Shown piece by piece: positions 403-48,129 of a stretch of DNA of 64,000 nt. The notes under the pieces are model-generated. The model had not been told where the DNA came from and did not search any database. It was given only the letters and a program-made list of their open reading frames with translations. The stretch lies in assembly GCA_016844745.1 (NCBI GenBank), contig JAERMQ010000013.1, positions 72,530-136,529 on the forward strand. The letters run 5' to 3'. This stretch comes from Ignavibacteria bacterium (GTDB lineage Bacteria; Bacteroidota; Ignavibacteria; Kapaibacteriales; UBA2268). The translations under genes and the position numbers were made by a program. Position 1 is the stretch's first letter. Each line of letters opens with the position of its first letter.

Positions 403-417
403 TCCATAAATCATTTG

Positions 418-778
418 TGGAGATGGCGGGAGTCGAACCCGCGTCCGAAGCGCTTCTTTCTGGGCATCTACATGTTTAGCCGGTTTATCATTTTAGTAGT
501 TTCGCTTACCAAACGGCAGGTGCGAATCTCCGAGCTCCCTGTTTTCTCACCTGCAACCCGGGAACGATGCGGCAAGCCAGCCCGACTCTTGTTTGACACC
601 CCCGAAAATACCATCAGGCGAGCTTTTCGGTCGATGTGGCTACCTTTTTTTAATTAGGCTGCCATTGCATAGCTATTGTTAGCATTTTTTGTTTGCCAGT
701 TGTATTTACGTGCTCCACCAGCATAGCACGACATGCAGCCTTCGACATCATTCACCCCGTCGAAGCCATTTCATCCCC
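418..778 (-). ncRNA. ssrA: Transfer-messenger RNA (tmRNA, SsrA). CCA is not encoded. The tag-peptide reading frame ends ...ANNSYAMAA*.
   Basis: The minus-strand 5' end GGGGAUGAAAUGGCUUCGACGGGG and 3' end CUAAACAUGUAG...UUCGGACGCGGGUUCGACUCCCGCCAUCUCCA closely match canonical tmRNA termini (E. coli GGGGCUGAUUCUGGAUUCGACGGG ... CUAAGCAUGUAG...GGACGCGGGUUCAACUCCCGCCAGCUCCACCA). The acceptor stem GGGGAUG/CAUCUCC pairs. An internal ORF ending GCU AAC AAU AGC UAU GCA AUG GCA GCC UAA matches the ANDENYALAA-type tag. The 80-aa '+' ORF at 415..657 is therefore spurious. Confidence 0.9.
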
Positions 779-2674: not shown

Positions 2675-3013
2675 ATGGAAAATAGAATACAAAACGATTA
2701 TTCAGCATATTTGCTTGGAAGAATCAAAAAAGCAATATTGAATGTAGAACCTTCTGCTGAAGTATATCTTTTTGGTTCCAGAGCGCGGGATGATTTTAAG
2801 GAAGATTCTGATTGGGATTTACTGATTTTATTATCTGCCGTTATAAATATGGATATTAAAAAAAGGATTGTTCACAATTTGCTGGAAATTGAAATTTCGG
2901 AAAATCAGACCTTCAATAGAATTTATTATAATTATGATGAATGGCACTCCAGCAAGTTAATTCAAGCAACCCCTTTCTACCAGAGTGTATCGAAGGATGC
3001 TATAAAATTATGA
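2675..3013 (+). CDS. Nucleotidyltransferase-domain protein (MNT-type; antitoxin partner of a HEPN protein)
   Basis: GS-x9-D-x-D minimal nucleotidyltransferase motif (LFGSRARDDFKEDSDWDLLILL). 112 aa. Stop overlaps the start of the following HEPN ORF (ATGA). Confidence 0.7.
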   Translation: MENRIQNDYSAYLLGRIKKAILNVEPSAEVYLFGSRARDDFKEDSDWDLLILLSAVINMDIKKRIVHNLLEIEISENQTFNRIYYNYDEWHSSKLIQATPFYQSVSKDAIKL

Positions 3014-3420
3014 ACGAAGATGTTAAAATAATCATAAACTATAGGATCGAAAAAGCCATTAAATCTTTAGATGAAGCTGAATATTTAATAAATGGAAATA
3101 TGTGGAATCTCACCGTTAATCGTTTATATTATTCCTGCTATTATTCCATAATTGCTTTGCTTCTCTGTATTGAACAATCGCCAAAAACTCATAAAGGAGC
3201 AAGGAATTTATTTCATCAGCATTTTATTGCCACTGGAATATTTAAATACGAATTTGGTGAATTATTAACAATTCTTTTTGATGCAAGACAAGAAGGTGAT
3301 TATAAAGATTTTGTTGAATTTGATTCATCCGATGTTTTACCTTGGATTAATCTAACAAAAGAATTTGTCAAAAGTATCTCGCAATTTATTTATTCTAATT
3401 ATTTCAATATTGATAAATAA
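3010..3420 (+). CDS. HEPN-domain protein (HepT-like putative RNase toxin)
   Basis: Small all-helical protein with an R-x4-6-H motif (ARNLFHQH). It immediately follows the MNT-like gene with a 4-bp overlap. Start set to the ATG at 3010 (MNEDVKII) rather than the longer listed ORF. Confidence 0.6.
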   Translation: MNEDVKIIINYRIEKAIKSLDEAEYLINGNMWNLTVNRLYYSCYYSIIALLLCIEQSPKTHKGARNLFHQHFIATGIFKYEFGELLTILFDARQEGDYKDFVEFDSSDVLPWINLTKEFVKSISQFIYSNYFNIDK

Positions 3421-3589: not shown

Positions 3590-5797
3590 ATGAGAATTTT
3601 TTATACTATCTTTTTAGCAATTTCATTTTTAAGTATAAGCGTACTTGCCGAACAAAATACACCATATAACCTCAAGGAAGGTACCCCGGATTCCGGAGTA
3701 AAACTTGCAACCCTTGAGCCTCCAAACGGAAGAGTGTATCACGGTGTAGGTCAGGCAGGTCAGGGTGTAAATGAATATTGCACTGCACTTGGCGATTCCA
3801 CAATCCAACCTGCTGTGGTAAAATATTATTATGATATTCCCGGAACTCGAGGAAATAAATTTATCGAATTACGGCAGACATTAGCCAATGAAAAGAAAAT
3901 CGGTCGCATTCCCGAACTCAGCATTGCAATGACAGACGGTAAAGTATGGACGGACAGCATAATCGCAACCAGCAGTCTATATGATAAAATCATCGATACA
4001 TTAGCTCTAATCTGCAAAGATTACGGATTGAAGATGTTCATTCGCCCCGGATTCGAGTTCAATGGCTCATGGAATCCATATCATCCGTATTTGTATCCGA
4101 AAGCATTCCAAAAGATAGTTAATCGATTTCGCACAATTGCCAATAAAGATTCCCTTGCTTTCGAATGGTGCTATTATGCCGGCGGTAATGCCCCGAATGA
4201 TTTTGATTCTATTGATTCCCGCGGCTACCGTTGGTATCCGGGTGATACCGCTGTGGATTGGTTTTCTTTGGATGTATTCAATGTAACTGATTTTCATCCT
4301 GATTCTGCTGCAATGCTTAGGGGTAAATTAACAACTAAAGGTAAATCCGAAAGGTTTTTATCGATGGCACGCGCGAAAGGAAAACCGGTTTATTTATCCG
4401 AAACAACTGCCCAGGGGATTAATATTTCCTCGAATCAATCCGACAGCCAGAATGACTGGAATAAATGGTTTGTTCCGTTTTTTAAATTTATTTCAGATCA
4501 TCCTGAAATTAAGGGATTCAATTATATCAATTGGGATTGGAGTAAGTACCCGACCTGGGCTGCATGGGGCGATGCCCGAATAGAGAACAGTCCTTATATT
4601 ATTTCAAAATATAAAGAAGAGATGAAGAACCCGAAGTATATTCATCTTCCTTTCAAAACAACCGTAAAAGATACATTCAATCTGACTCCGATAACCGAAT
4701 TAGGAACGAATTTATATAAAACATTTCCGGGAGGACTTTATCCCGAAGGCTCAAATACACGCCCTACGAACCATAACGATGCCGGGAAAAAGAAATCTAT
4801 CGAAATTATACCACTCGATACAACAGGGGAATCGAACGAGCAACAAGGCAAAATAGTTCTTTTATCTGTTGGAATGTCGAACTGTACCCAGGAATTCTCG
4901 ACTTTCAAACCAATAGCAGATACTTTAAAAGCAAAAAATCCGAAACTCGTGATTGTCGATGGCGCTCAGGGCGGTCAGACAGCATCAGTAATCCAAAATC
5001 CAAATGCGAATTTCTGGAGTGAAATCAATAGAAGATTAGGTTTAGCCAAAGTATCTGCCCAACAAGTCCAGATTGTCTGGCTCAAAGAAGCAGATGCCGG
5101 ACCCAAGAATGACTTTCCGGTTCATGCACAAACATTGACAAAGGAATTGAAGATAATCTGTCAAATATTGAAAGCCAAATATCCGAATATAAAAATATGT
5201 TATTTTTCAAGTCGGACTTATGGAGGCTATGCCACTACTACACTCAATCCCGAGCCTATGGCTTATGAAACCGGCTTCTCTGTGAAATGGTTAATCGAAT
5301 CTCAAATCAACGGCGATACTACTCTGAGTTATGAAGGCAATAATGTCCGCTCTCCGTGGTTATCGTGGGGACCATATCTTTGGGGAAACGGCACGAAACC
5401 GCGTTTGGATGACGGATTAGTATGGCTCGAAACTGATTTTGTAACTTCGGACTACACTCATCCTTCGCCATCCGGTCGGCTCAAAGTAGCTCAATTACTG
5501 CTTAAATTCTTCACGAATGATGAAACTGCAACTCCTTGGTTCTTAAAGAGTGGGAGCACTTTAGTTGAAGAAAATGAAATTTCTGATATAATTGAAGTAA
5601 ATCCTAATCCTGCTTATGATTATATTTATTTAAATAATATGAATGAACAATTAGAAAAAACAATTACCATATATTCCATTGAAGGATTTGAAGTTTTAAC
5701 TACAAAAAATATTTCGCAAATCTATATTGGCAGCCTAGCCGCGGGAGTTTATATCATAAAAGTAGCGGGGAAGAGTTTCAAATTTGTGAAGATGTAG
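3590..5797 (+). CDS. Secreted multidomain carbohydrate-active enzyme: GH26-like glycoside hydrolase domain + SGNH/GDSL-type esterase-like domain + T9SS (Por) C-terminal sorting domain
   Basis: Signal peptide. IRPGFEFNGSW resembles the GH26 acid/base motif (RFGHEMNG-W) and YLSETT is a candidate nucleophile region. The central LLSVGMSN...DGAQGG segment looks like an SGNH hydrolase block. The C-terminal ~80 aa (IYSIEG...GVYIIKV...FKFVKM) has the pattern of a T9SS CTD. Confidence 0.5.
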   Translation: MRIFYTIFLAISFLSISVLAEQNTPYNLKEGTPDSGVKLATLEPPNGRVYHGVGQAGQGVNEYCTALGDSTIQPAVVKYYYDIPGTRGNKFIELRQTLANEKKIGRIPELSIAMTDGKVWTDSIIATSSLYDKIIDTLALICKDYGLKMFIRPGFEFNGSWNPYHPYLYPKAFQKIVNRFRTIANKDSLAFEWCYYAGGNAPNDFDSIDSRGYRWYPGDTAVDWFSLDVFNVTDFHPDSAAMLRGKLTTKGKSERFLSMARAKGKPVYLSETTAQGINISSNQSDSQNDWNKWFVPFFKFISDHPEIKGFNYINWDWSKYPTWAAWGDARIENSPYIISKYKEEMKNPKYIHLPFKTTVKDTFNLTPITELGTNLYKTFPGGLYPEGSNTRPTNHNDAGKKKSIEIIPLDTTGESNEQQGKIVLLSVGMSNCTQEFSTFKPIADTLKAKNPKLVIVDGAQGGQTASVIQNPNANFWSEINRRLGLAKVSAQQVQIVWLKEADAGPKNDFPVHAQTLTKELKIICQILKAKYPNIKICYFSSRTYGGYATTTLNPEPMAYETGFSVKWLIESQINGDTTLSYEGNNVRSPWLSWGPYLWGNGTKPRLDDGLVWLETDFVTSDYTHPSPSGRLKVAQLLLKFFTNDETATPWFLKSGSTLVEENEISDIIEVNPNPAYDYIYLNNMNEQLEKTITIYSIEGFEVLTTKNISQIYIGSLAAGVYIIKVAGKSFKFVKM

Positions 5798-5875: not shown

Positions 5876-6433
5876 ATGACTGGCATTATTGACCTAAAAT
5901 CAGAATTAAAACCTTATTTAAACTCTTATGAAAATATTCTCTGGGTTGGACAACCTAAGAAAGGAATAATAATTCAAAGTTCTGAGTTAATTATGATTCT
6001 ACAAGGTATTTTCTTTTGTGGATTTGGAATTCTTTTGTTTTCGATTGTTATAAAAGCTGAAGTTCCTATCATTATCAAAATCTTTGTCTTTGTTATTATG
6101 ATAATGGGTTTGTATTTTTTATTTGGTAGAATGATGTATGATGCAATACGAAGAGGAAAAACAATTTATGGAGTAACCGATGAAAGAATTATTATGAAAG
6201 AAGGAATAATATTTAAAAAAGTAAAATCTCTAAATATCAGAACTATTTCTGATATTGGATTTGAAGAAAAATCAGATGGAAGCGGGACAATTTTTTTTGG
6301 AACAAAGAACATTTTTAATTTTTTGACTGGCTTGAATTGGCGGTCAAGTATGAAACCAACTCCATCAATAGATAAAATTCAAGAAGTTAGAAAAGTATAT
6401 AATCAAATTATTGAACTTCAGAAGAAAAAATAG
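5876..6433 (+). CDS. Membrane protein with a bacterial PH (bPH_2/YdbS-like) domain
   Basis: Two predicted TM helices followed by a GVTDERIIMKEG...KSLNIRTISDI pattern typical of the membrane-anchored PH-like DUF304 family. Confidence 0.4.
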   Translation: MTGIIDLKSELKPYLNSYENILWVGQPKKGIIIQSSELIMILQGIFFCGFGILLFSIVIKAEVPIIIKIFVFVIMIMGLYFLFGRMMYDAIRRGKTIYGVTDERIIMKEGIIFKKVKSLNIRTISDIGFEEKSDGSGTIFFGTKNIFNFLTGLNWRSSMKPTPSIDKIQEVRKVYNQIIELQKKK

Positions 6434-6543
6434 AAATCATTAACCAAAAGGATTAGTTTTTTTGAAAGGAAGACTCTCCTCCAACTGATTAGCCAGTAAA
6501 ATCCCTTTCAACTATTACTTGAATATATATTTATTTACATTCC

Positions 6544-7122
6544 TTATCTTTTACGAAAAATTATCTTTTCTTCTACCTGTTTGAACTCAATATCAAATTC
6601 ATCAAAAACAACCTCCCTGCCGATTATCATATCATCAATTTCTTCATCCTGAATCCATGCAAAACGATTTTTGATTCTATAACCATCGATTTCAATTTCA
6701 TTCTCCCTCATAAGAAAATTAATTTTACTACCAAAACCTTCGGCAAAACCCATTATTTCATGCTCATCCCTTTTGAATCCAAGTTCTTCACCGAAATTAT
6801 AGTTAATTATTGAAATATCAGCTCCACTATCAATCAACATTCTTTCTTGTTTAATATTCCCATCAGGTAAAATAAAATCTACAGGATAAATTGGCTTCCA
6901 TTCATGTTTTGAAATATTTTTTATTTTAAATGTTAGAATACGGTATGCATCATATTGTTTTGGAACTTTAAAAGTAGAAAATGTCAAATTCTTTTGCATC
7001 ATTTTCTCATCAATTTCATTGTATGAATCAGCGTATTCAACAATTTTTTCATCTACAATTGCTATTACTTTTCCCCAATATTTAGAATTGTGGAAAATTT
7101 CTCTTTGCCAATCATCTTTCAT
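6544..7122 (-). CDS. Fusion protein: N-terminal small domain (resembles DUF5678 by eye, unverified) + retropepsin-like (clan AA) aspartic protease domain. Paralogue of 47539..48129.
   Basis: DSGAD (D-S/T-G-A) aspartic protease motif (LIDSGADISI) and a C-terminal IIGREVVFD flap/dimerisation-like region. ~50% identical over its full length to the protein at 47539..48129. Confidence 0.55.
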   Translation of the reverse strand: MKDDWQREIFHNSKYWGKVIAIVDEKIVEYADSYNEIDEKMMQKNLTFSTFKVPKQYDAYRILTFKIKNISKHEWKPIYPVDFILPDGNIKQERMLIDSGADISIINYNFGEELGFKRDEHEIMGFAEGFGSKINFLMRENEIEIDGYRIKNRFAWIQDEEIDDMIIGREVVFDEFDIEFKQVEEKIIFRKR

Positions 7123-7302
7123 TTTATCACCTTATAATTTATAGTAAAATTTCTTTGAAGAATTAATGTTCATTTTATTTTATTCATACTTATCAACCAA
7201 AGCAAATTACTTCCGTTAATACTCTATAATGCTTCCTTCGAAAATTTTTAATGATAACAGTGATTGTTGAAAAGTTTGTTAATATGTATAAAATCAATTA
7301 TT

Positions 7303-7524
7303 TTATAGAGAATTAAATTCCTCAACAGTTAATCCCGCTTGAATTATTAATTTTTTCAATATTCCAATTCCAAGTTCTTTATGTTGAGGAACAGAAAGTG
7401 TGTATATATAATTTTCTTTAACCATCATAACATGAGAACCAACTTGTCTATCAATTATCCATCCGACATTTATAAATTTTTTGACAGCTTGAGAACCGGA
7501 AACAAGTATAAGTTTGTGGCTCAA
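7303..7524 (-). CDS. hicA: HicA-family mRNA interferase toxin
   Basis: 73 aa, pattern KK...GW...RQ.GSH.......IYTLSVP.H.KELG.G.LK.I..QAGL matches the YcfA/HicA family. 4-bp overlap with the upstream hicB. Confidence 0.75.
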   Translation of the reverse strand: MSHKLILVSGSQAVKKFINVGWIIDRQVGSHVMMVKENYIYTLSVPQHKELGIGILKKLIIQAGLTVEEFNSL

Positions 7525-7721
7525 ACCATAACCTCAACTGTTAGCATTTCAGATTTTTTTGCTTTATCATTCATGACAGCTAACCAGCCTACAATCGCTT
7601 CTTTAATATTTTCCGTTGCTTCGGATATAGTTTTTCCTTGAGAAAAGCATCCTGGCAAAGCAGGCACTTCGGCTACATAATAACCTGATTCGTCCAATTC
7701 AATATTTACTTGGAAATTCAT
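7521..7721 (-). CDS. hicB: HicB-family antitoxin (UPF0150)
   Basis: 66 aa, YYVAEVPALPGCFSQGKTISEATENIKEAI matches the HicB N-terminal RNase-H-like fold signature. Translationally coupled to hicA. Confidence 0.7.
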   Translation of the reverse strand: MNFQVNIELDESGYYVAEVPALPGCFSQGKTISEATENIKEAIVGWLAVMNDKAKKSEMLTVEVMV

Positions 7722-7814
7722 TTATTTATCCTCTTATCGTTTTTCATTTTTTAAATCCATTTTAAGTCAAAATTTAATTGAAGATTAATTAATAATTTTA
7801 TTTTATTCCAATAT

Positions 7815-10800
7815 TCATCTTACTACAGCAAATTTCCTGCGTTCATACTCAACTGTGCTGCCGTCTGCTTTGGTTTCGCGAACATAAAATAAATAAATAC
7901 CCGGGTCGATTAGATTGCCGTTTCTATTATGCAAATCCCAATCGACACCGCCATTACCGTCAATCTCTTTCAAGCGAGCAATTAATTCACCCTGAATTGT
8001 AATGACCACAACTTCACATTTTGAGGGTATTTGTGCAAAAGTTAAATGATTTGCATCTCCTAATTTAATAGGATTAGGATAGGCAAATGCATCATCTCCA
8101 TTCGGTGAAGTAAATAAAAAAGATAGAGAATTGCCCGCTCCTGTGGTCATCAGATGTTCCGAATTAGATTTTACATTTTTGACAGTTAAAGTATATGTTT
8201 TACCAAGAGCAGCAATTAACTCACTCGGTTCCAATTCAATTGATACTTGAGCAGGATTGCTTTGCTTTTGATTTACTTTGATGATTTTACCATAAGGCGA
8301 AATCATATAATTACTAATTTGTTCGGCAGTCTGCTGCTCAGTTGGTTCGGAAAATTCGACTAATAATTGAGTTCTGGAAATTACTTCGAGGCTTTTCAGA
8401 TAAAGGAATATTTCTTTTTGTTGTTTACTTAATTCCAGTGGTAAATAGTTTTCTTTTGTAGGCATACGCCACATATCCCTGAACGATTTACATCGAAGGA
8501 TATATTGACCTTCTGTTATAAAATCCGGTAAGGTAACAATTAAACTCGAATCGTTACCAAAGACAACACTTTTAGCTATTGTAAGGAATTCTTTTTTTAC
8601 ATCCAATAATTCAAATAAAGCAGGCTCGAGAGTTTTATTACCGAGCTTACCTGTGTATTTGACCAACAGACGATTACCATTTTGAAATTCTGCCGATTGT
8701 GCAAATAACGGATTATGTGTATAAATTTTAACAATATTTGTATCCAATAATGAAAATTGACTGTAGAAGTCAGTCATGTTACTATTATATGAACGTATTA
8801 CAAAAGAATAGAATTTATTTTTTCCTAAATTTTCAATGTTGATTGTATTGGAGGTAGTCTGCCCAACCGGGTCTGCAAATACGGATTTACCTTCGAACCG
8901 CAGCGAATCAATTTCGTATCCTTCTGCATCAGGTGAAGGATACCATTGAAAGAAAGCAGTCGAATCGCTCGTTGCCCAGCCATCGAATGATGTAGGTGCC
9001 GATGGTCCCTGGAATTGTGCATTAAATTCATAGAACACTGTCTCATTGCCGGTATTGAAGCCTATTTCATTCACTCCGTTGTTATTGAAATCATAAATTA
9101 CCGCGCTATTCGAAAATGCATTATTATTCCAGTAAAGTGGTTTCATATTCTGGTTTTTTTTATCCCATTTCAAAATATACAAATTCGGAAAAGGCATAAG
9201 CACTATCTCATCACCCGGTTCTTTATCCAAATTCCCTGCAGACACACCATTTCGGTAATCAATACCGCTCCGAACTCCGTAAACATAATCTGTCCAAATT
9301 GATTTATATGAATTTGTTCCAATCTTCTGAAAAATTCTATATTTCCATATAATTACTCCGTTATCATTTTCATTTGGAAGAAGACTACTATCAATGGAGC
9401 CAATAAGTATTTCAGGAATACCGTTACCATCAATATCAACGGTAGAAATATAAAAATTCTCATCAGAGTTGCCGCTTGAATCAATAAATTCAAGATTCAA
9501 AGCGCCCTTCGAAAATTCATAAAACATAATATCTCCACTCCGGTTTCCAAAACACAATTCAATATTTCCATCACCGTCGAAATCACCAATAGCAAGTCCC
9601 GGTAGTGTGCCGATATGCTTCCTTTCTCTGTTTGAATCTAATGCCATTGTCATTAGTTCATAACGATTGTTCATAAAAGTATAAATCAAATATGATGTGT
9701 CGCTGGATGCAATCAGTTCTGGATTACCGTTTCGGTCGAAGTCATACATTCCGGCAGCCCAGAAATTATGATATACTGTATCGGAAAAAATTTTGTTAGA
9801 AAAAGGATTTCCCGATTGGATTGATGCCTGAAAAAGTACTGATTTGCCTGAAGATTTTGCAAATACTTCCATAATTCCGTCACCGTTGGAATCGCCCATG
9901 CCAACCGGTATCCAAAGATTTGGAGTAGAATCCCTTTGAATGAATTTATTATCCTTGAATTGATATATTTTTGTGGGTCCCCAAAGTGCTGAAGCCATCT
10001 CATTAACAGCAATGCAAGGATAGCCGTCGTGATAAAAATCCGATACTTTATTTAGAAGATTCTCAGGTGGCAGGGAATAACCCTGCTGTATGAATTTATC
10101 CGAGGGCATTCCTTCCTGTGGAAGAGTGAAATTGAATTTGTTAATTACGGAATCACAACCTGTGCGAACAGCTACAGCCTCGGCTTCGTAAACGATTCCG
10201 GGCTGAAGGTCGTATGCTGTAATGGAATGAAACCTGCCGCTGGTTTCATATTCGCTTATTTCTTTAAATTCGGAATTGGAATTTAAAGGACGGAATCTTA
10301 CCGAAAATAGGCATTGACTCGAGGTTTGCGCCGCTGCCAGCAGAATTCTTTTACCGTTAAATATTGGATAAAGAATAATCAGTGAATCTATTTTTATTCT
10401 CGTCTTTTCAGAAGCAATCTCAATATATTTGCGAAATTCGATTGTATGAAAATTCTTCAAATTGACGATTACTCTTATAGTATAAACGCTGTCGGAATAG
10501 TTATCAACAGGGATTTCCGCTAATTTACCATCTATGATTTGCGAGTTTGTTTTAATATTCAATGTATCCCAGGGTTTAAGATTAAAGTATTGTTTAATTG
10601 TATCGGGTAAATCCCTTTTCGGGACATATACCGGGTCGATTCCTTTGCCGATAAGAACAAGATAATTATTGAATAAAGGAGTTGCTATCGAGCCGGTTAC
10701 AGGAATGGTTGTTTGATTTTTCCTGTTGAAAACCTGATTATTTTTTGGCGTTGAAATGTATAGGTGAGTTCCTCCAATAATATTTAAGGCTGCTTCGGCA

Positions 10801-46467: not shown

Positions 46468-46776
46468 TCATGCGATTATCATGGATAAATCAACGTTATC
46501 AAAGAGCCTTGCAGAATGAAATACTGTCAGGATTCTAACATTATCGTCAATTAAATGATAGATAATTCTGTAATTACCATATATTAATTCCCTGATATCT
46601 TCCTTCTTAAGTTCAGGGATAATTCTTCCCGAAAAAGGAAAAATTTCTAACTTTTCGGTTACTTCAATAATGTTATCTATGGTAATATCAGCATATTTGG
46701 GAGAGTCTCTAAAAATGTATTCATATATTAATTTTAAGTCATCTCTTGCCTGCTCAGACCAGATTATCTTTTCCAT
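46468..46776 (-). CDS. RelE/ParE-family type II toxin
   Basis: 102 aa. IIWSEQARDDLKLIYEYI ... RILTVFHSAR pattern of ParE/RelE toxins. Overlaps the upstream small antitoxin gene by 13 bp. Confidence 0.65.
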   Translation of the reverse strand: MEKIIWSEQARDDLKLIYEYIFRDSPKYADITIDNIIEVTEKLEIFPFSGRIIPELKKEDIRELIYGNYRIIYHLIDDNVRILTVFHSARLFDNVDLSMIIA

Positions 46777-46955
46777 TCCAAAACCTGATTTTTTAATTCT
46801 GAATGCGAAATTGATTGACCAGCATTGACTTGTTGCAATCCTTTTTCAATTTTATAAATTAAAAACATTCTTTCCATAATATCATCAAATGTCGTTTCAG
46901 AATTGATATTTTCAGTTACTTCGATGAGTTTATCTTTTATTGATAATAATTCCAT
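46764..46955 (-). CDS. Putative antitoxin partner of the ParE/RelE-like toxin (small addiction-module component)
   Basis: ~63-aa acidic helical protein immediately upstream of and overlapping the toxin gene. Start taken at MELLSIKDK. Confidence 0.45.
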   Translation of the reverse strand: MELLSIKDKLIEVTENINSETTFDDIMERMFLIYKIEKGLQQVNAGQSISHSELKNQVLEWKR

Positions 46956-47048
46956 TTTAAAAAGCCTCCAAAAGTTAATAGAACTCAAATAACAGGTTTA
47001 ATATTATTTTTTACATAAAGATTCGATAAAGAATTTTATTAGACCTCT

Positions 47049-47489
47049 TTAATACATATCTACAACCCATTTACCATCATTGATTGGATTACCGATAATT
47101 CCCTGACTTTTAGGGTCAACCACCCAGTCCATTGTTTTGAGTACCAAATATCCGATTAAAGCCGGAACATTGTCATCTTTATTTTCCATTACTTGCATTT
47201 GAATAGTCCGCTCTTTTATTGTTATTTTTGCACCATCGAATATCCTAAGTTCAAGGCTGCCATTCCCAGTCTTTACAGGTGTTGATTTCGCAAAACGAAG
47301 ACCAAGTTCCTTAATAACTTTCGGAGGCAGGCAAAGATAGGCAGCACCGGTATCAACCAAAGCATCAATTTCTAAGCTCCGGATTTGATTAGGTTTGATG
47401 TAACCTTTATCAGATAACACAATATCATCATAGTTAGTTATCACTACTTTTTCTGACGTTCTACCCCTTTTATTTTCCCTTAGTTTCAT
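47049..47489 (-). CDS. Stand-alone retropepsin-like (clan AA) aspartic protease
   Basis: DTGAAY active-site motif (ALVDTGAAYLCLP) and C-terminal LIGYLVLKTMDWVVD flap/dimer region. 146 aa. Compare the AF_0612 / Asp_protease_2 families. Confidence 0.6.
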   Translation of the reverse strand: MKLRENKRGRTSEKVVITNYDDIVLSDKGYIKPNQIRSLEIDALVDTGAAYLCLPPKVIKELGLRFAKSTPVKTGNGSLELRIFDGAKITIKERTIQMQVMENKDDNVPALIGYLVLKTMDWVVDPKSQGIIGNPINDGKWVVDMY

Positions 47490-47538: not shown

Positions 47539-48129
47539 TTATTGCATATTGTCCCTTTTTTTAAATATTATTTCTTCGTCTGCTTGTTTGAATTCGATAT
47601 CGAATAGGTCGAATACTGTTTCGCGTCCAATAATCAAATCGTTAATATCTTCATCCTGAAGCCATGCTACACGAATTTTAAAACGGTAGCTGTCAATTTC
47701 AATTTCCGTCTCTCTAATTAGGTATTCGACTGAACCGCCAATCCCTATAACGATAGAAACTGATTCATGTTTGCCTTTAGTAAATCCAAGTTTTTCACCA
47801 AATTTTTTGCCGACTGCTGTAATATCGGCTCCACTATCAATCAATACATTTTCAGAAATATTACTGCCATCGTCAAGAAAAAACATTATCGGATATTCAG
47901 GATACCACTCATGCAATTTCATACTTTTAAGTCTCAAAGGTAAAATTCGGTACAAATCAGGTCTTTTAGGAACAGCAAAACATGAAAATTTTTGAGTGAT
48001 TATTTTTGCCTTTTTTTCTATTTCATCATAATCATCAGCGACTGCAATTATTTTATCATCTGCAATAGCTATGATCCTTCCCCAATATTCCCGGTTGTTG
48101 AACATTTCCTTTTGCCATTCGTTTTTCAT
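47539..48129 (-). CDS. Fusion protein: N-terminal small domain (resembles DUF5678 by eye, unverified) + retropepsin-like aspartic protease. Paralogue of 6544..7122.
   Basis: LIDSGADITAVG active site. ~50% identity to 6544..7122 including the N-terminal EYWGRIIAIADDKIIAVADDYDEI segment and the C-terminal IIGRETVFDLFDIEFKQ. Confidence 0.55.
   Translation of the reverse strand: MKNEWQKEMFNNREYWGRIIAIADDKIIAVADDYDEIEKKAKIITQKFSCFAVPKRPDLYRILPLRLKSMKLHEWYPEYPIMFFLDDGSNISENVLIDSGADITAVGKKFGEKLGFTKGKHESVSIVIGIGGSVEYLIRETEIEIDSYRFKIRVAWLQDEDINDLIIGRETVFDLFDIEFKQADEEIIFKKRDNMQ

What the first reader, a model, noticed from the sequence alone, without database searches (positions are those of the whole stretch)
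6544..7721. First copy of the retropepsin-fusion gene sits immediately downstream of a hicB-hicA operon
hicB (7521-7721), hicA (7303-7524, 4-bp overlap) and the 192-aa retropepsin fusion (6544-7122) are co-oriented with a 180-bp AT-rich gap. This mirrors the arrangement at 46.4-48.1 kb (retropepsin genes followed by ParE/antitoxin). The repeated TA association is what makes the retropepsin genes worth a functional look.
Basis: seen in the sequence. Interest (0 to 1): 0.5.

Follow-up and report, generated by a model that had tools for sequence, protein, structure and literature searches.

The report
Fused DUF5678–retropepsin cassette beside hicBA
The gene next to the hicB-hicA toxin-antitoxin pair is a single-chain fusion of a previously undescribed two-gene cassette, made of a small DUF5678 protein and an HIV-protease-like enzyme. 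That cassette looks like a mobile accessory module in its own right, and its position next to hicBA is not conserved in related genomes.

Summary
hicB (7521-7721), hicA (7303-7524, 4-bp overlap) and a 192-aa DUF5678+retropepsin gene (6544-7122) are co-oriented, with a 180-bp gap that is 79% A+T. A 54%-identical paralog lies upstream of a stand-alone retropepsin and an antitoxin/ParE pair at 46.4-48.1 kb.

The hicBA adjacency is not conserved: the 74%-identical relative has no TA neighbour. Other close relatives sit beside different TA families or none. Gene order differs between the two window loci. Across 61 related loci, TA density next to the module is at most about twice that 2.5-4 kb away.

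The main result is different. In about 19 archaeal, Planctomycetota and candidate-phylum loci the same protein is split into two tightly coupled genes: DUF5678 (60-100 aa), then a 131-154 aa retropepsin. So the window gene is a fusion of a TA-like bicistronic cassette.

All retropepsin hallmarks are conserved (DSGA, GIGG flap, IIGRE). The family is rare, chromosomal, patchily distributed, sometimes decayed, and multi-copy: this MAG carries at least 12 retropepsin genes.

I infer a cytoplasmic protease controlled by its DUF5678 partner, in trans or in cis. This has not been tested, and I found no paper describing it.

The parts
7521..7721 (-). hicB, a short (66 aa) HicB/UPF0150-type antitoxin with no C-terminal DNA-binding domain
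   Evidence: PF15919 E=1.3e-11 and PF21748 E=6.3e-9. ORF.
7303..7524 (-). hicA toxin (73 aa, TTG start overlapping the hicB stop by 4 bp)
   Evidence: PF07927 E=3.1e-14. Sequence.
7123..7302 (-). 180-bp gap (79% A+T) between hicA and the fusion gene, with no predicted terminator and no TAnnTTTG box
7146..7185 (-). 40-nt element upstream of the fusion gene. It is an imperfect direct repeat (32/40) of 7769-7808, which lies upstream of hicB, so the two copies bracket the hicBA cassette.
   Evidence: 0 of 1000 shuffles reach 32/40. The 14-mer core occurs only at these two sites in the window.
7769..7808 (-). second copy of the 40-nt element, 48-87 nt upstream of the hicB ATG
6955..7122 (-). fusion gene aa 1-56: DUF5678 domain (alpha-beta-beta-alpha-beta)
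   Evidence: Pfam DUF5678 E=2e-3 here and 2.2e-7 in the paralog. It aligns with stand-alone DUF5678 proteins. AF2 pLDDT is 80-94.
6886..6954 (-). fusion gene aa 57-79: conserved linker (consensus RILPIRIKS.K.HEW.P.Y). The stop/start junction of the split gene pairs maps to aa ~61-63.
   Evidence: Junction alignment. Conservation is 2.5-2.8 bits versus 1.6-2.3 in the N-domain. pLDDT is low.
6544..6885 (-). fusion gene aa 80-192 plus stop: retropepsin domain with catalytic D98-S-G-A, flap G129-F-G-S (family consensus GIGG), I166-I-G-R-E and the conserved C-terminal hairpin FDIEFKQ..E.IIF
   Evidence: Invariant columns. Foldseek matches HIV/SIV/EIAV proteases at E~4e-6, target TM 0.65-0.72.
47539..48129 (-). 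paralogous DUF5678-retropepsin fusion (196 aa, 54% identity), with a TAnnTTTG box starting 33 nt upstream of its start codon
47049..47489 (-). stand-alone retropepsin (146 aa; DTGA) from a different, highly conserved solo family with at least 7 copies in this MAG
46764..46988 (-). 74-aa putative antitoxin that overlaps parE by 13 nt
   Evidence: Position and overlap. Only a weak RelB/ParD hit, E=0.046.
46468..46776 (-). ParE/RelE-family toxin (102 aa)
   Evidence: PF05016 E=2e-18 and TIGR02385 E=1.9e-9.

Best explanation
SHOWN. The 192-aa gene is an end-to-end fusion of a conserved two-gene cassette. In about 19 loci from archaea, Phycisphaerae/Planctomycetes and Saccharibacteria, a stand-alone DUF5678 gene (60-100 aa) is followed within -16 to +21 nt (mostly -4 or +1) by a 131-154 aa retropepsin gene. 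The junction of these pairs maps to residues ~61-63 of the window protein. Starting instead from stand-alone DUF5678 proteins, all three that I looked up are followed by such a retropepsin. The protease part keeps every retropepsin hallmark, has an HIV-protease fold, and has no signal peptide or membrane segment visible in the sequence, so it is probably cytoplasmic. The family is rare, chromosomal, taxonomically patchy, multi-copy in some genomes and sometimes decayed. Its neighbours vary.

INFERRED. DUF5678 binds its retropepsin; the isoelectric points of the two partners are anticorrelated. DUF5678 probably restrains or regulates the protease. A likely route is through its conserved hydrophobic C-terminal tail or linker, which could occupy the substrate cleft or the N-terminal dimer-interface strand. 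In the fused form this control would act in cis, possibly relieved by autoprocessing near residue 60 as in retroviral Gag-Pol. The module would then behave like a toxin-antitoxin or defence-type accessory element. That would explain why copies accumulate in the same variable, TA-rich spots as hicBA, parDE, vapBC and MNT/HEPN, without a specific functional link to hicBA.

The overall confidence of 0.6 combines about 0.85 for the shown part (a fused two-gene cassette whose hicBA adjacency is non-specific) with about 0.35 for the inferred part (a TA-like regulated protease).
For: - Split versus fused architecture.
- Reverse check from the DUF5678 side.
- Invariant D-S-G-A-D, GIGG flap, IIGRE and C-terminal hairpin.
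- Fold: AF2 pLDDT 88.8; Foldseek to HIV/SIV/EIAV proteases at E~4e-6.
- The linker is more conserved than the N-domain although modelled with low confidence in the monomer.
- pI anticorrelation of the partners: Spearman -0.69, p=0.001, n=19; -0.62, p=0.017 after collapsing close relatives.
- Accessory behaviour: patchy taxonomy; only 46 clusters at E<=1e-30 among 1.84 billion representatives; at least 5 fused plus at least 7 solo retropepsin genes in this MAG, which co-cluster (P~7e-4); fragments and pseudogenes in L032, L057 and P0347.
- Variable contexts and changing TA neighbours.
- HIV-1 protease is toxic when expressed in E. coli (my own knowledge, not checked here), so a retropepsin is a credible toxin.
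Against: - There are no experimental data of any kind.
- In eight Poribacteria MAGs the fused gene sits in one conserved position beside an N6_N4 DNA-methylase/Mrr_cat gene. That is stable vertical inheritance, which is unlike a typical selfish TA.
- TA enrichment near the module is at most about 2-fold over the distal flank and is not significant.
- Covalent fusion of a toxin to its antitoxin is unusual.
- PADLOC gives only weak hits to candidate-system components.
- The interaction and the inhibition mode were not modelled, because no multimer prediction was available.
Confidence: 0.6

Rival explanations
1. One reading: the retropepsin fusion is functionally coupled to the adjacent TA system, for example as a co-transcribed third component that degrades the antitoxin or processes the toxin. 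The repeat of this arrangement at the ParE locus would then reflect a real three-part system.
For: The genes are co-oriented and no terminator is predicted in the 180-bp gap. Two of the three TA modules in the window abut the two fusion genes (P=0.015-0.06). TA genes are again next to relatives in L094 and L100.
Against: The hicBA adjacency is absent in the 74%-identical relative and in other paralogs and orthologs. Gene order is inverted between the two window loci. The TA families next to relatives differ (HicAB, ParDE, VapBC, DUF2283, PemK, MNT-HepT), and the two ParE pairs are unrelated in sequence. Only 3-4 of 41 fused loci have a TA gene within 1.5 kb. The conserved partner of the protease is DUF5678, not a TA protein. 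A 40-nt repeat brackets hicBA, which suggests an independently inserted cassette or separate promoters.
Confidence: 0.07
2. A non-selfish cellular protease with a built-in adaptor, pro-domain or cognate substrate. DUF5678 would recruit substrates, chaperone folding, or itself be the processed precursor. The module would serve ordinary proteostasis or regulation, and the TA neighbours would be incidental in TA-rich genomes.
For: The position is stable and syntenic in eight Poribacteria MAGs. Many fused loci lie among housekeeping genes such as tyrS, mnmG, carAB and glycosyltransferases. TA density near the module is not significantly above the distal control. Domain fusion is common for enzyme-adaptor pairs. 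Characterised bacterial retropepsin-like enzymes (APRc, RloA) have physiological rather than toxic roles.
Against: The distribution is very patchy and the family rare. There are five to twelve paralogs in one genome. Copies are frequently fragmented. The tightly overlapping small-gene/larger-gene architecture is typical of TA modules. No conserved additional partner or pathway genes were found.
Confidence: 0.25
3. A remnant of a virus or retroelement: a protease left behind by an integrated mobile element, with no present cellular role.
For: The fold is retroviral-type. Pandoravirus DUF5678 proteins are the top, non-significant BFVD structural matches to the N-domain.
Against: There is one distant hit in 2.9 million viral contigs and none in the phage or plasmid collections. 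No reverse transcriptase, integrase or capsid genes are nearby. Catalytic and structural motifs are under strong conservation in all five paralogs.
Confidence: 0.03

Closest known systems
Type II toxin-antitoxin modules, including fused single-chain forms such as CapRel(SJ46) (named from my own knowledge)
   Same: In the split relatives a small upstream gene overlaps a larger downstream effector gene. The distribution is patchy and driven by horizontal transfer. Copies are multiple per genome, decay occurs, and the modules co-reside with other TA modules. The partners show charge complementarity.
   Different: The effector is a clan AA aspartic protease, which I found in no described TA system. 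DUF5678 has no recognisable DNA-binding or antitoxin fold. Toxicity and neutralisation are untested. In some lineages the gene is stably syntenic.
Retroviral protease embedded in Gag-Pol (HIV-1 PR)
   Same: Same fold and the same DSGA / GIGG flap / G-R-(D/N/E) motifs. Like the embedded retroviral enzyme, the protease carries an N-terminal extension joined through a conserved linker. That makes regulation by N-terminal autoprocessing and dimerisation plausible, but this is an inference.
   Different: It is a prokaryotic chromosomal gene with no Gag, RT or IN. The N-terminal partner is a folded DUF5678 domain that in many genomes is a separate gene.
Characterised bacterial retropepsin-like enzymes: Rickettsia APRc and Pseudomonas RloA/RimB
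   Same: They are single-domain, dimeric-type aspartic proteases of prokaryotes. APRc autoprocesses in a manner that depends on the catalytic Asp.
   Different: APRc is embedded in the outer membrane and the Rlo enzymes carry signal peptides. The window protein shows neither. The only RloA-model hit was to the separate 146-aa stand-alone retropepsin at 47049-47489 (E=0.067, not significant); the fusion proteins gave no NCBIfam hit at all. Neither APRc nor RloA is paired with DUF5678.
PADLOC candidate defence systems PDC-M08 and PDC-M52 (component B)
   Same: Their B components are retropepsin-like. The window and split proteases hit them weakly (E 1e-4 to 1e-6).
   Different: The scores are far below family level. 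No DUF5678 protein hits any PADLOC model that would correspond to component A. These systems are themselves only candidates.
Ddi1-type UBL-retropepsin proteins of eukaryotes
   Same: The architecture is an N-terminal small domain followed by a retropepsin. There is a weak hit to Pfam Asp_protease (PF09668), E=1.7e-4.

Membership tests
Retropepsin-like aspartic protease (clan AA; Pfam Asp_protease_2 / gag-asp_proteas) | Catalytic Asp in a D-[ST]-G-A motif | tested here: met
   D98-S-G-A-D is invariant or nearly invariant in 28- and 68-sequence alignments.
Retropepsin-like aspartic protease (clan AA; Pfam Asp_protease_2 / gag-asp_proteas) | Profile match above the curated threshold | tested here: met
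   PF13650 37.2 bits (cut-off 24.3) and PF13975 33.5 bits (cut-off 28.2).
Retropepsin-like aspartic protease (clan AA; Pfam Asp_protease_2 / gag-asp_proteas) | Retropepsin fold with a flap and a G-R-x helix motif | tested here: met
   AF2 pLDDT 88.8. Foldseek matches HIV/SIV/EIAV PR at E~4e-6, target TM 0.65-0.72. Flap consensus is GIGG (GFGS in this copy) and IIGRE is conserved.
Retropepsin-like aspartic protease (clan AA; Pfam Asp_protease_2 / gag-asp_proteas) | Homodimerisation and proteolytic activity | not testable with these tools
   This needs multimer modelling or biochemistry.
DUF5678 (PF18929) | Profile match above the gathering score | tested here: inconclusive
   This copy scores 18.3 bits against a 23.2 cut-off. 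The paralog at 47539-48129 scores 31.0 bits. A profile of the fused family detects stand-alone DUF5678 proteins, which themselves match Pfam at E 1e-10 to 1e-17. Membership holds for the family and is sub-threshold for this copy alone.
Type II toxin-antitoxin system | Two adjacent, co-oriented, tightly coupled small genes | tested here: inconclusive
   Met in about 19 split relatives (gaps -16 to +21 nt). In the window the two parts are fused into one ORF.
Type II toxin-antitoxin system | The toxin arrests growth and the antitoxin neutralises it by binding | not testable with these tools
   The only indirect evidence is the pI anticorrelation of the partners.
Type II toxin-antitoxin system | The antitoxin carries a DNA-binding domain for autoregulation | tested here: not met
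HicAB (the neighbouring genes) | HicA and HicB profile matches in an overlapping gene pair | tested here: met
   PF07927 53.2 bits, PF15919 45.2 bits, 4-bp overlap. This HicB is the short form, without an RHH/HTH extension.
ParDE/RelBE (second locus) | ParE/RelE toxin with an overlapping upstream antitoxin | tested here: met
   ParE scores 67.2 bits and overlaps the 74-aa upstream ORF by 13 nt. The antitoxin itself gives only a weak RelB/ParD hit, E=0.046.
PADLOC PDC-M08 / PDC-M52 candidate defence systems | Significant match to component B together with a cognate component A | tested here: not met
   B hits are E 6e-5 to 1e-6 at best. No A-type hit was found for any DUF5678 protein.

The most novel reading that the evidence does not exclude
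DUF5678-retropepsin is a new class of toxin-antitoxin or abortive-infection module. Its effector would be a cytoplasmic, HIV-protease-like homodimeric aspartic protease. The DUF5678 partner would keep it inactive, as a separate protein in archaea and candidate phyla and as a cis-acting N-terminal domain in the bacterial fused forms. Activation would be by autoprocessing at the conserved linker, as in retroviral Gag-Pol maturation. The expansion to at least 12 retropepsin genes in one Ignavibacteria genome would then be an arsenal of such modules.
Probability: 0.3. Interest if true: 0.75.

Novelty: new variant of a known kind. Interest (0 to 1): 0.45.

Why it matters
Aspartic proteases of the retroviral type are barely studied in prokaryotes, and I found none described as the effector of a TA-like or defence-like module. 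If the inference holds, this cassette adds a new enzymatic activity to prokaryotic toxin and defence effectors. It would also give a function to DUF5678. It would further provide a natural, genetically separable model (split versus fused) for how an N-terminal partner controls retropepsin dimerisation and activation, which is the question at the centre of HIV protease maturation. For annotation, it shows that TA neighbours of such genes mark accessory hot spots rather than functional partners.

Tried and rejected
- Sigma-70 promoter and terminator scan of 6300-7900: 15 promoter-like sites against 10.2+-2.9 expected, and no terminator. Uninformative.
- Bacteroidota-type TAnnTTTG box: present 33-48 nt upstream of eight operon-leading genes in the window, including the second fusion copy, but absent upstream of the first copy and of hicB. 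Transcription of the first copy stays undecided.
- Rfam on the whole window: only tmRNA, nothing in the gap.
- phmmer of the N-domain against PDB sequences: nothing significant.
- hhalign of DUF5678 against the neighbouring HicB: probability 2%.
- NCBIfam: no hit for the fusion proteins.
- PADLOC: weak candidate-system hits only.
- Literature: 'DUF5678', 'retropepsin'+'toxin-antitoxin', 'PDC-M08', 'Asp_protease_2'+'toxin' and 'retropepsin'+'defense islands' gave nothing relevant.
- Plasmid, phage and viral-contig searches: essentially empty.
- Two encoding-contig look-ups (P0007, P0005) found no record.
- Search for a conserved partner of the 139-aa solo retropepsin family: none.
- The AFDB fold library was unavailable.
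- P0347, a 605-aa longer fusion, turned out to be a decayed copy (D->G in the catalytic motif) read through into a membrane protein.
Full report
**1. The observation**

The ORFs are exactly as described, all on the minus strand:
- hicB at 7521-7721 (66 aa; HicB_lk_antitox E=1.3e-11).
- hicA at 7303-7524 (73 aa, TTG start; HicA_toxin E=3.1e-14), overlapping hicB by 4 bp.
- After a 180-bp gap that is 79% A+T, a 192-aa ORF at 6544-7122.

The C-terminal half of the 192-aa ORF matches retropepsin families (Asp_protease_2 E=4.9e-9, gag-asp_proteas E=6.3e-8). Its N-terminus matches DUF5678 weakly (E=2e-3, below the Pfam cut-off).

At 46.4-48.1 kb there are four more genes:
- a 54%-identical 196-aa paralog (DUF5678 E=2.2e-7);
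- an unrelated stand-alone 146-aa retropepsin;
- a 74-aa putative antitoxin;
- ParE (E=2e-18).

Gene order is not the same at the two loci. At locus 1 the TA pair is upstream of the fusion gene. At locus 2 it is downstream, with another gene in between.

The window contains a third TA module, MNT+HEPN at 2675-3420. Two of the three TA modules abutting the two fusion genes has a chance probability of about 0.015-0.06 in a simple placement simulation.

The source is an Ignavibacteria MAG with locus tags HW421_. The finding's gene is HW421_1207.

**2. What the 192-aa gene is**

Homologs of 190-230 aa share several invariant or nearly invariant features:
- L-x-D-S-G-A-D, which contains the catalytic Asp98;
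- a G-I/V-G-G flap motif (GFGS in this copy);
- I-I-G-R-E;
- a very conserved C-terminal hairpin, FDIEFKQ..E.IIF.

AlphaFold2 with a 68-sequence alignment gives mean pLDDT 88.8. The model has an N-terminal alpha-beta-beta-alpha-beta domain (aa 1-52), a low-confidence linker (aa ~57-77) and a beta-rich C-domain. The best PDB matches of the C-domain are HIV, SIV and EIAV proteases (E~4e-6, target TM 0.65-0.72). The sequence shows no signal peptide or membrane segment, so the enzyme is probably cytoplasmic. This is read from the sequence and was not run through a predictor.

**3. The key comparative result**

A scan of one genome per species returned 80 loci. I searched crude ORF sets from these loci with a profile of the fused family.

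41 loci carry the fused gene. They come from Thiomargarita/Thioploca, Desulfobacterales, Poribacteria, Ignavibacteria/Kapaibacterium, cyanobacteria, Saprospiraceae and other Bacteroidota, and Acidobacteriota.

About 19 loci carry the same sequence split into two co-oriented genes. They come from Methanoperedens, Woese-, Nano- and Pacearchaeota, Archaeoglobales, Phycisphaerae/Planctomycetes and Saccharibacteria. In these loci:
- a 60-100 aa gene covers profile positions ~3-56;
- it is followed, at -16 to +21 nt (mostly -4 or +1), by a 131-154 aa retropepsin covering positions ~63/76-192.

The small proteins are bona fide DUF5678 (Pfam E 1e-10 to 1e-17). In an alignment of concatenated pairs with fused proteins, the stop/start junction falls at residues ~61-63 of the window protein.

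I then started from the other side, with stand-alone DUF5678 proteins. All three that I looked up, including one 65-aa protein with only a weak DUF5678 hit, are followed at 0-4 nt by a 139-145 aa gene. That gene is Pfam-annotated as a retropepsin in two of the three cases. The genomic contexts are unrelated to each other: a ribosomal operon with RadC and a type I R-M gene, UvrA, and a small-gene island.

The conserved partner of this protease is therefore DUF5678. The window gene is a fusion of a bicistronic cassette whose layout is that of a type II TA module.

**4. Is the TA association real?**

The hicBA adjacency is not conserved. Contexts of close relatives are:
- P0003 (74% identity): penicillin amidase, a 127-aa stand-alone retropepsin, the fusion, then a 619-aa gene.
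- HW421_152 and HW421_154: after tyrS, with a small T9SS-tail gene between them.
- P0012: a T9SS-tail gene, the fusion, then a TIG/Fib_succ_major gene.
- P0014: DUF2283, the fusion, then a 71-aa gene plus PIN.

I took a Pfam census of small ORFs within 1.5 kb of the module.
- In the 41 fused loci it found one YoeB, one MazE, one ParE and one HTH_3. This census missed at least one larger fused MNT-HepT gene.
- In the 20 split loci it found many more: ParE x3, PIN_2 x2, HicA, HicB-like, DUF2283 x2, DUF4258, Fic, YoeB and MNT.

A control zone 2.5-4 kb away in the same loci also contains DUF5615 x2, BrnT x2, PIN, PIN_10, MNT and DUF6036. Only 25 of 40 families were listed, so this count is a lower bound. 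Local enrichment is therefore at most about 2-fold and not significant.

The solo 139-aa retropepsin family shows the same pattern. It has no conserved partner and its neighbours are scattered YoeB/Phd, HepT, PIN and ParE genes. In locus L100 two tandem copies are followed by ParE and PemK pairs, and that ParE pair is unrelated in sequence to the window's.

My conclusion is that these genes live in TA-rich accessory neighbourhoods, or in TA-rich genomes. They do not form a unit with any particular TA system.

**5. Accessory behaviour**

- The family is rare. Among 1.84 billion cluster representatives there are 1382 hits at E<=1e-3 and 46 at E<=1e-30, with about 35-40 full-length fused clusters.
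- It is absent from the plasmid and phage collections, and has one distant hit in 2.9 million viral contigs.
- Fragments and decayed copies occur in L032, L057 and P0347.
- The HW421 MAG carries at least five fused genes (HW421_152, _154, _1207, _1238, _3950) and at least seven solo retropepsins (HW421_168, _858, _1237, _3218, _3940, _3941, _3943).
- By locus-tag distance, three of the four fused-gene clusters have a solo retropepsin within 16 genes (P~7e-4, assuming ~4000 genes and sequential tags).
- Against purely selfish behaviour, eight Poribacteria MAGs keep the fused gene in one syntenic position, between a methylase/Mrr gene and carAB.

**6. Mechanism (inferred)**

In the split pairs the isoelectric points of the two partners are anticorrelated. 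Either N is basic and C acidic, or the reverse (Spearman -0.69, p=0.001; -0.62, p=0.017 after collapsing close relatives). This points to a physical complex.

Stand-alone DUF5678 proteins end in a conserved VP-x-E-x-T-M-I-F type tail. The corresponding linker of the fused proteins (RILPIRIKS.K.HEW.P.Y) is more conserved than the DUF5678 domain itself, although it is unstructured in the monomer model. That is what one expects of a segment that docks in trans, either in the substrate cleft or in the N-/C-terminal beta-sheet that forms the retropepsin dimer interface.

I therefore propose that DUF5678 restrains or regulates the protease. In the fused form this control would be intramolecular, possibly released by autoprocessing near residue 60, by analogy with Gag-Pol-embedded HIV protease and with the Asp-dependent autoprocessing of Rickettsia APRc.

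**7. Transcription**

Transcription of the first copy cannot be settled from sequence.
- No terminator is predicted in the gap, and sigma-70-like matches are at chance level.
- A Bacteroidota-type TAnnTTTG box lies 33-48 nt upstream of eight operon-leading genes in the window, including the second fusion copy. None lies upstream of the first copy or of hicB.
- A 40-nt imperfect direct repeat (32/40) lies upstream of both hicB (7769-7808) and the fusion gene (7146-7185), so it brackets the hicBA cassette. None of 1000 shuffles reached this level of identity. It is either a shared promoter-like element or the footprint of hicBA insertion in front of the fusion gene. Both readings argue for separate origins of the two units.

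**8. Comparison with what is known, and verdict**

The protease part is a clear member of the retropepsin-like clan. The N-terminal part belongs to DUF5678 at the family level.

The pairing, its fusion, and any role are not described in the searchable literature. The characterised bacterial retropepsin-like enzymes are membrane-bound or secreted, and are not DUF5678-linked. PADLOC candidate systems PDC-M08 and PDC-M52 contain distantly similar proteases but are not matched as systems.

The proposed TA coupling is not supported as a specific unit. The gene is best described as a fused member of an uncharacterised, TA-like DUF5678-retropepsin cassette. I rate it of moderate interest, and it would need experiments to go further.

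Noticed in passing
window 7146-7185 and 7769-7808: A 40-nt imperfect direct repeat (32/40; the minus strand starts GAATAAAATAAAAT) brackets the hicBA cassette. One copy is upstream of hicB and the other upstream of the fusion gene. It may be an insertion footprint or a shared promoter element.
   Followed up: partly
window 415-778 (-): tmRNA (ssrA) gene, Rfam RF00023, 172.6 bits, full length. It is the only Rfam hit in the window.
   Followed up: no
window 2675-3013 and 2941-3420 (+): A third TA-type module in the window: an MNT-like nucleotidyltransferase (Polbeta/NTP_transf_2) overlapping a HEPN-domain gene. It lies 3.1 kb from the first fusion gene.
   Followed up: partly
window 47049-47489; HW421_168, _858, _3218, _3940, _3941, _3943: The stand-alone ~139-aa retropepsin belongs to an unusually conserved solo family (55-88% identity across Ignavibacteria, Nitrospirota, Hydrogenedentota and Desantisbacteria). 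It has at least 7 copies in this MAG, which co-cluster with the fused genes, and no conserved partner gene.
   Followed up: partly
L093 4465-4848 and window 47049-47489: A stand-alone retropepsin lies directly next to a DUF5678-retropepsin fusion in two independent loci. It is upstream in one and downstream in the other, and the two solo proteins are 23% identical (pairwise E=3e-7). This might hint at heterodimers or at islands of retropepsin genes.
   Followed up: partly
L082 2425-2883; L096 4572-4988; L101 835-1302; L103 86-385: Small (99-155 aa) proteins recur immediately beside retropepsin genes of both families in Ignavibacteria-like contigs; those in L082 and L096 are annotated FlgD_ig + Por_Secre_tail (T9SS-sorted).
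   Followed up: no
window, upstream of starts at 3590, 5876, 15652, 30614, 40495, 48129, 49284, 49409: The Bacteroidota-type -7 box TAnnTTTG sits 33-48 nt upstream of eight operon-leading start codons. This suggests the Ignavibacteria MAG uses Bacteroidota-like promoters.
   Followed up: partly
L005, L006, L010, L012, L013, L014, L017 (Poribacteria): The fused gene is syntenic in Poribacteria MAGs. The order, annotated in L012, is GNAT acetyltransferase, an N6_N4 DNA methylase fused to Mrr_cat, the fusion gene, then carA and carB.
   Followed up: partly
L032 6166-6725; L057 4950-7188; P0347: Fragmented or degenerate copies of the fused gene occur. One 605-aa protein has the catalytic Asp replaced by Gly and is read through into a membrane protein. 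This is evidence of frequent decay.
   Followed up: partly
proteins P0076, P0083, P0088, P0100, P0104, P0129: Public annotations give stand-alone DUF5678 proteins unrelated names ('succinyl-CoA synthetase subunit alpha', 'disulfide oxidoreductase YuzD', 'orotate phosphoribosyltransferase-like'). These are almost certainly propagated misannotations.
   Followed up: no
BFVD hits A0A2U7UG46, A0A2U7UD66 (Pandoravirus): DUF5678-annotated proteins exist in Pandoraviruses and are the best structural matches to the N-domain, though not significant (E~0.02, TM 0.67).
   Followed up: no
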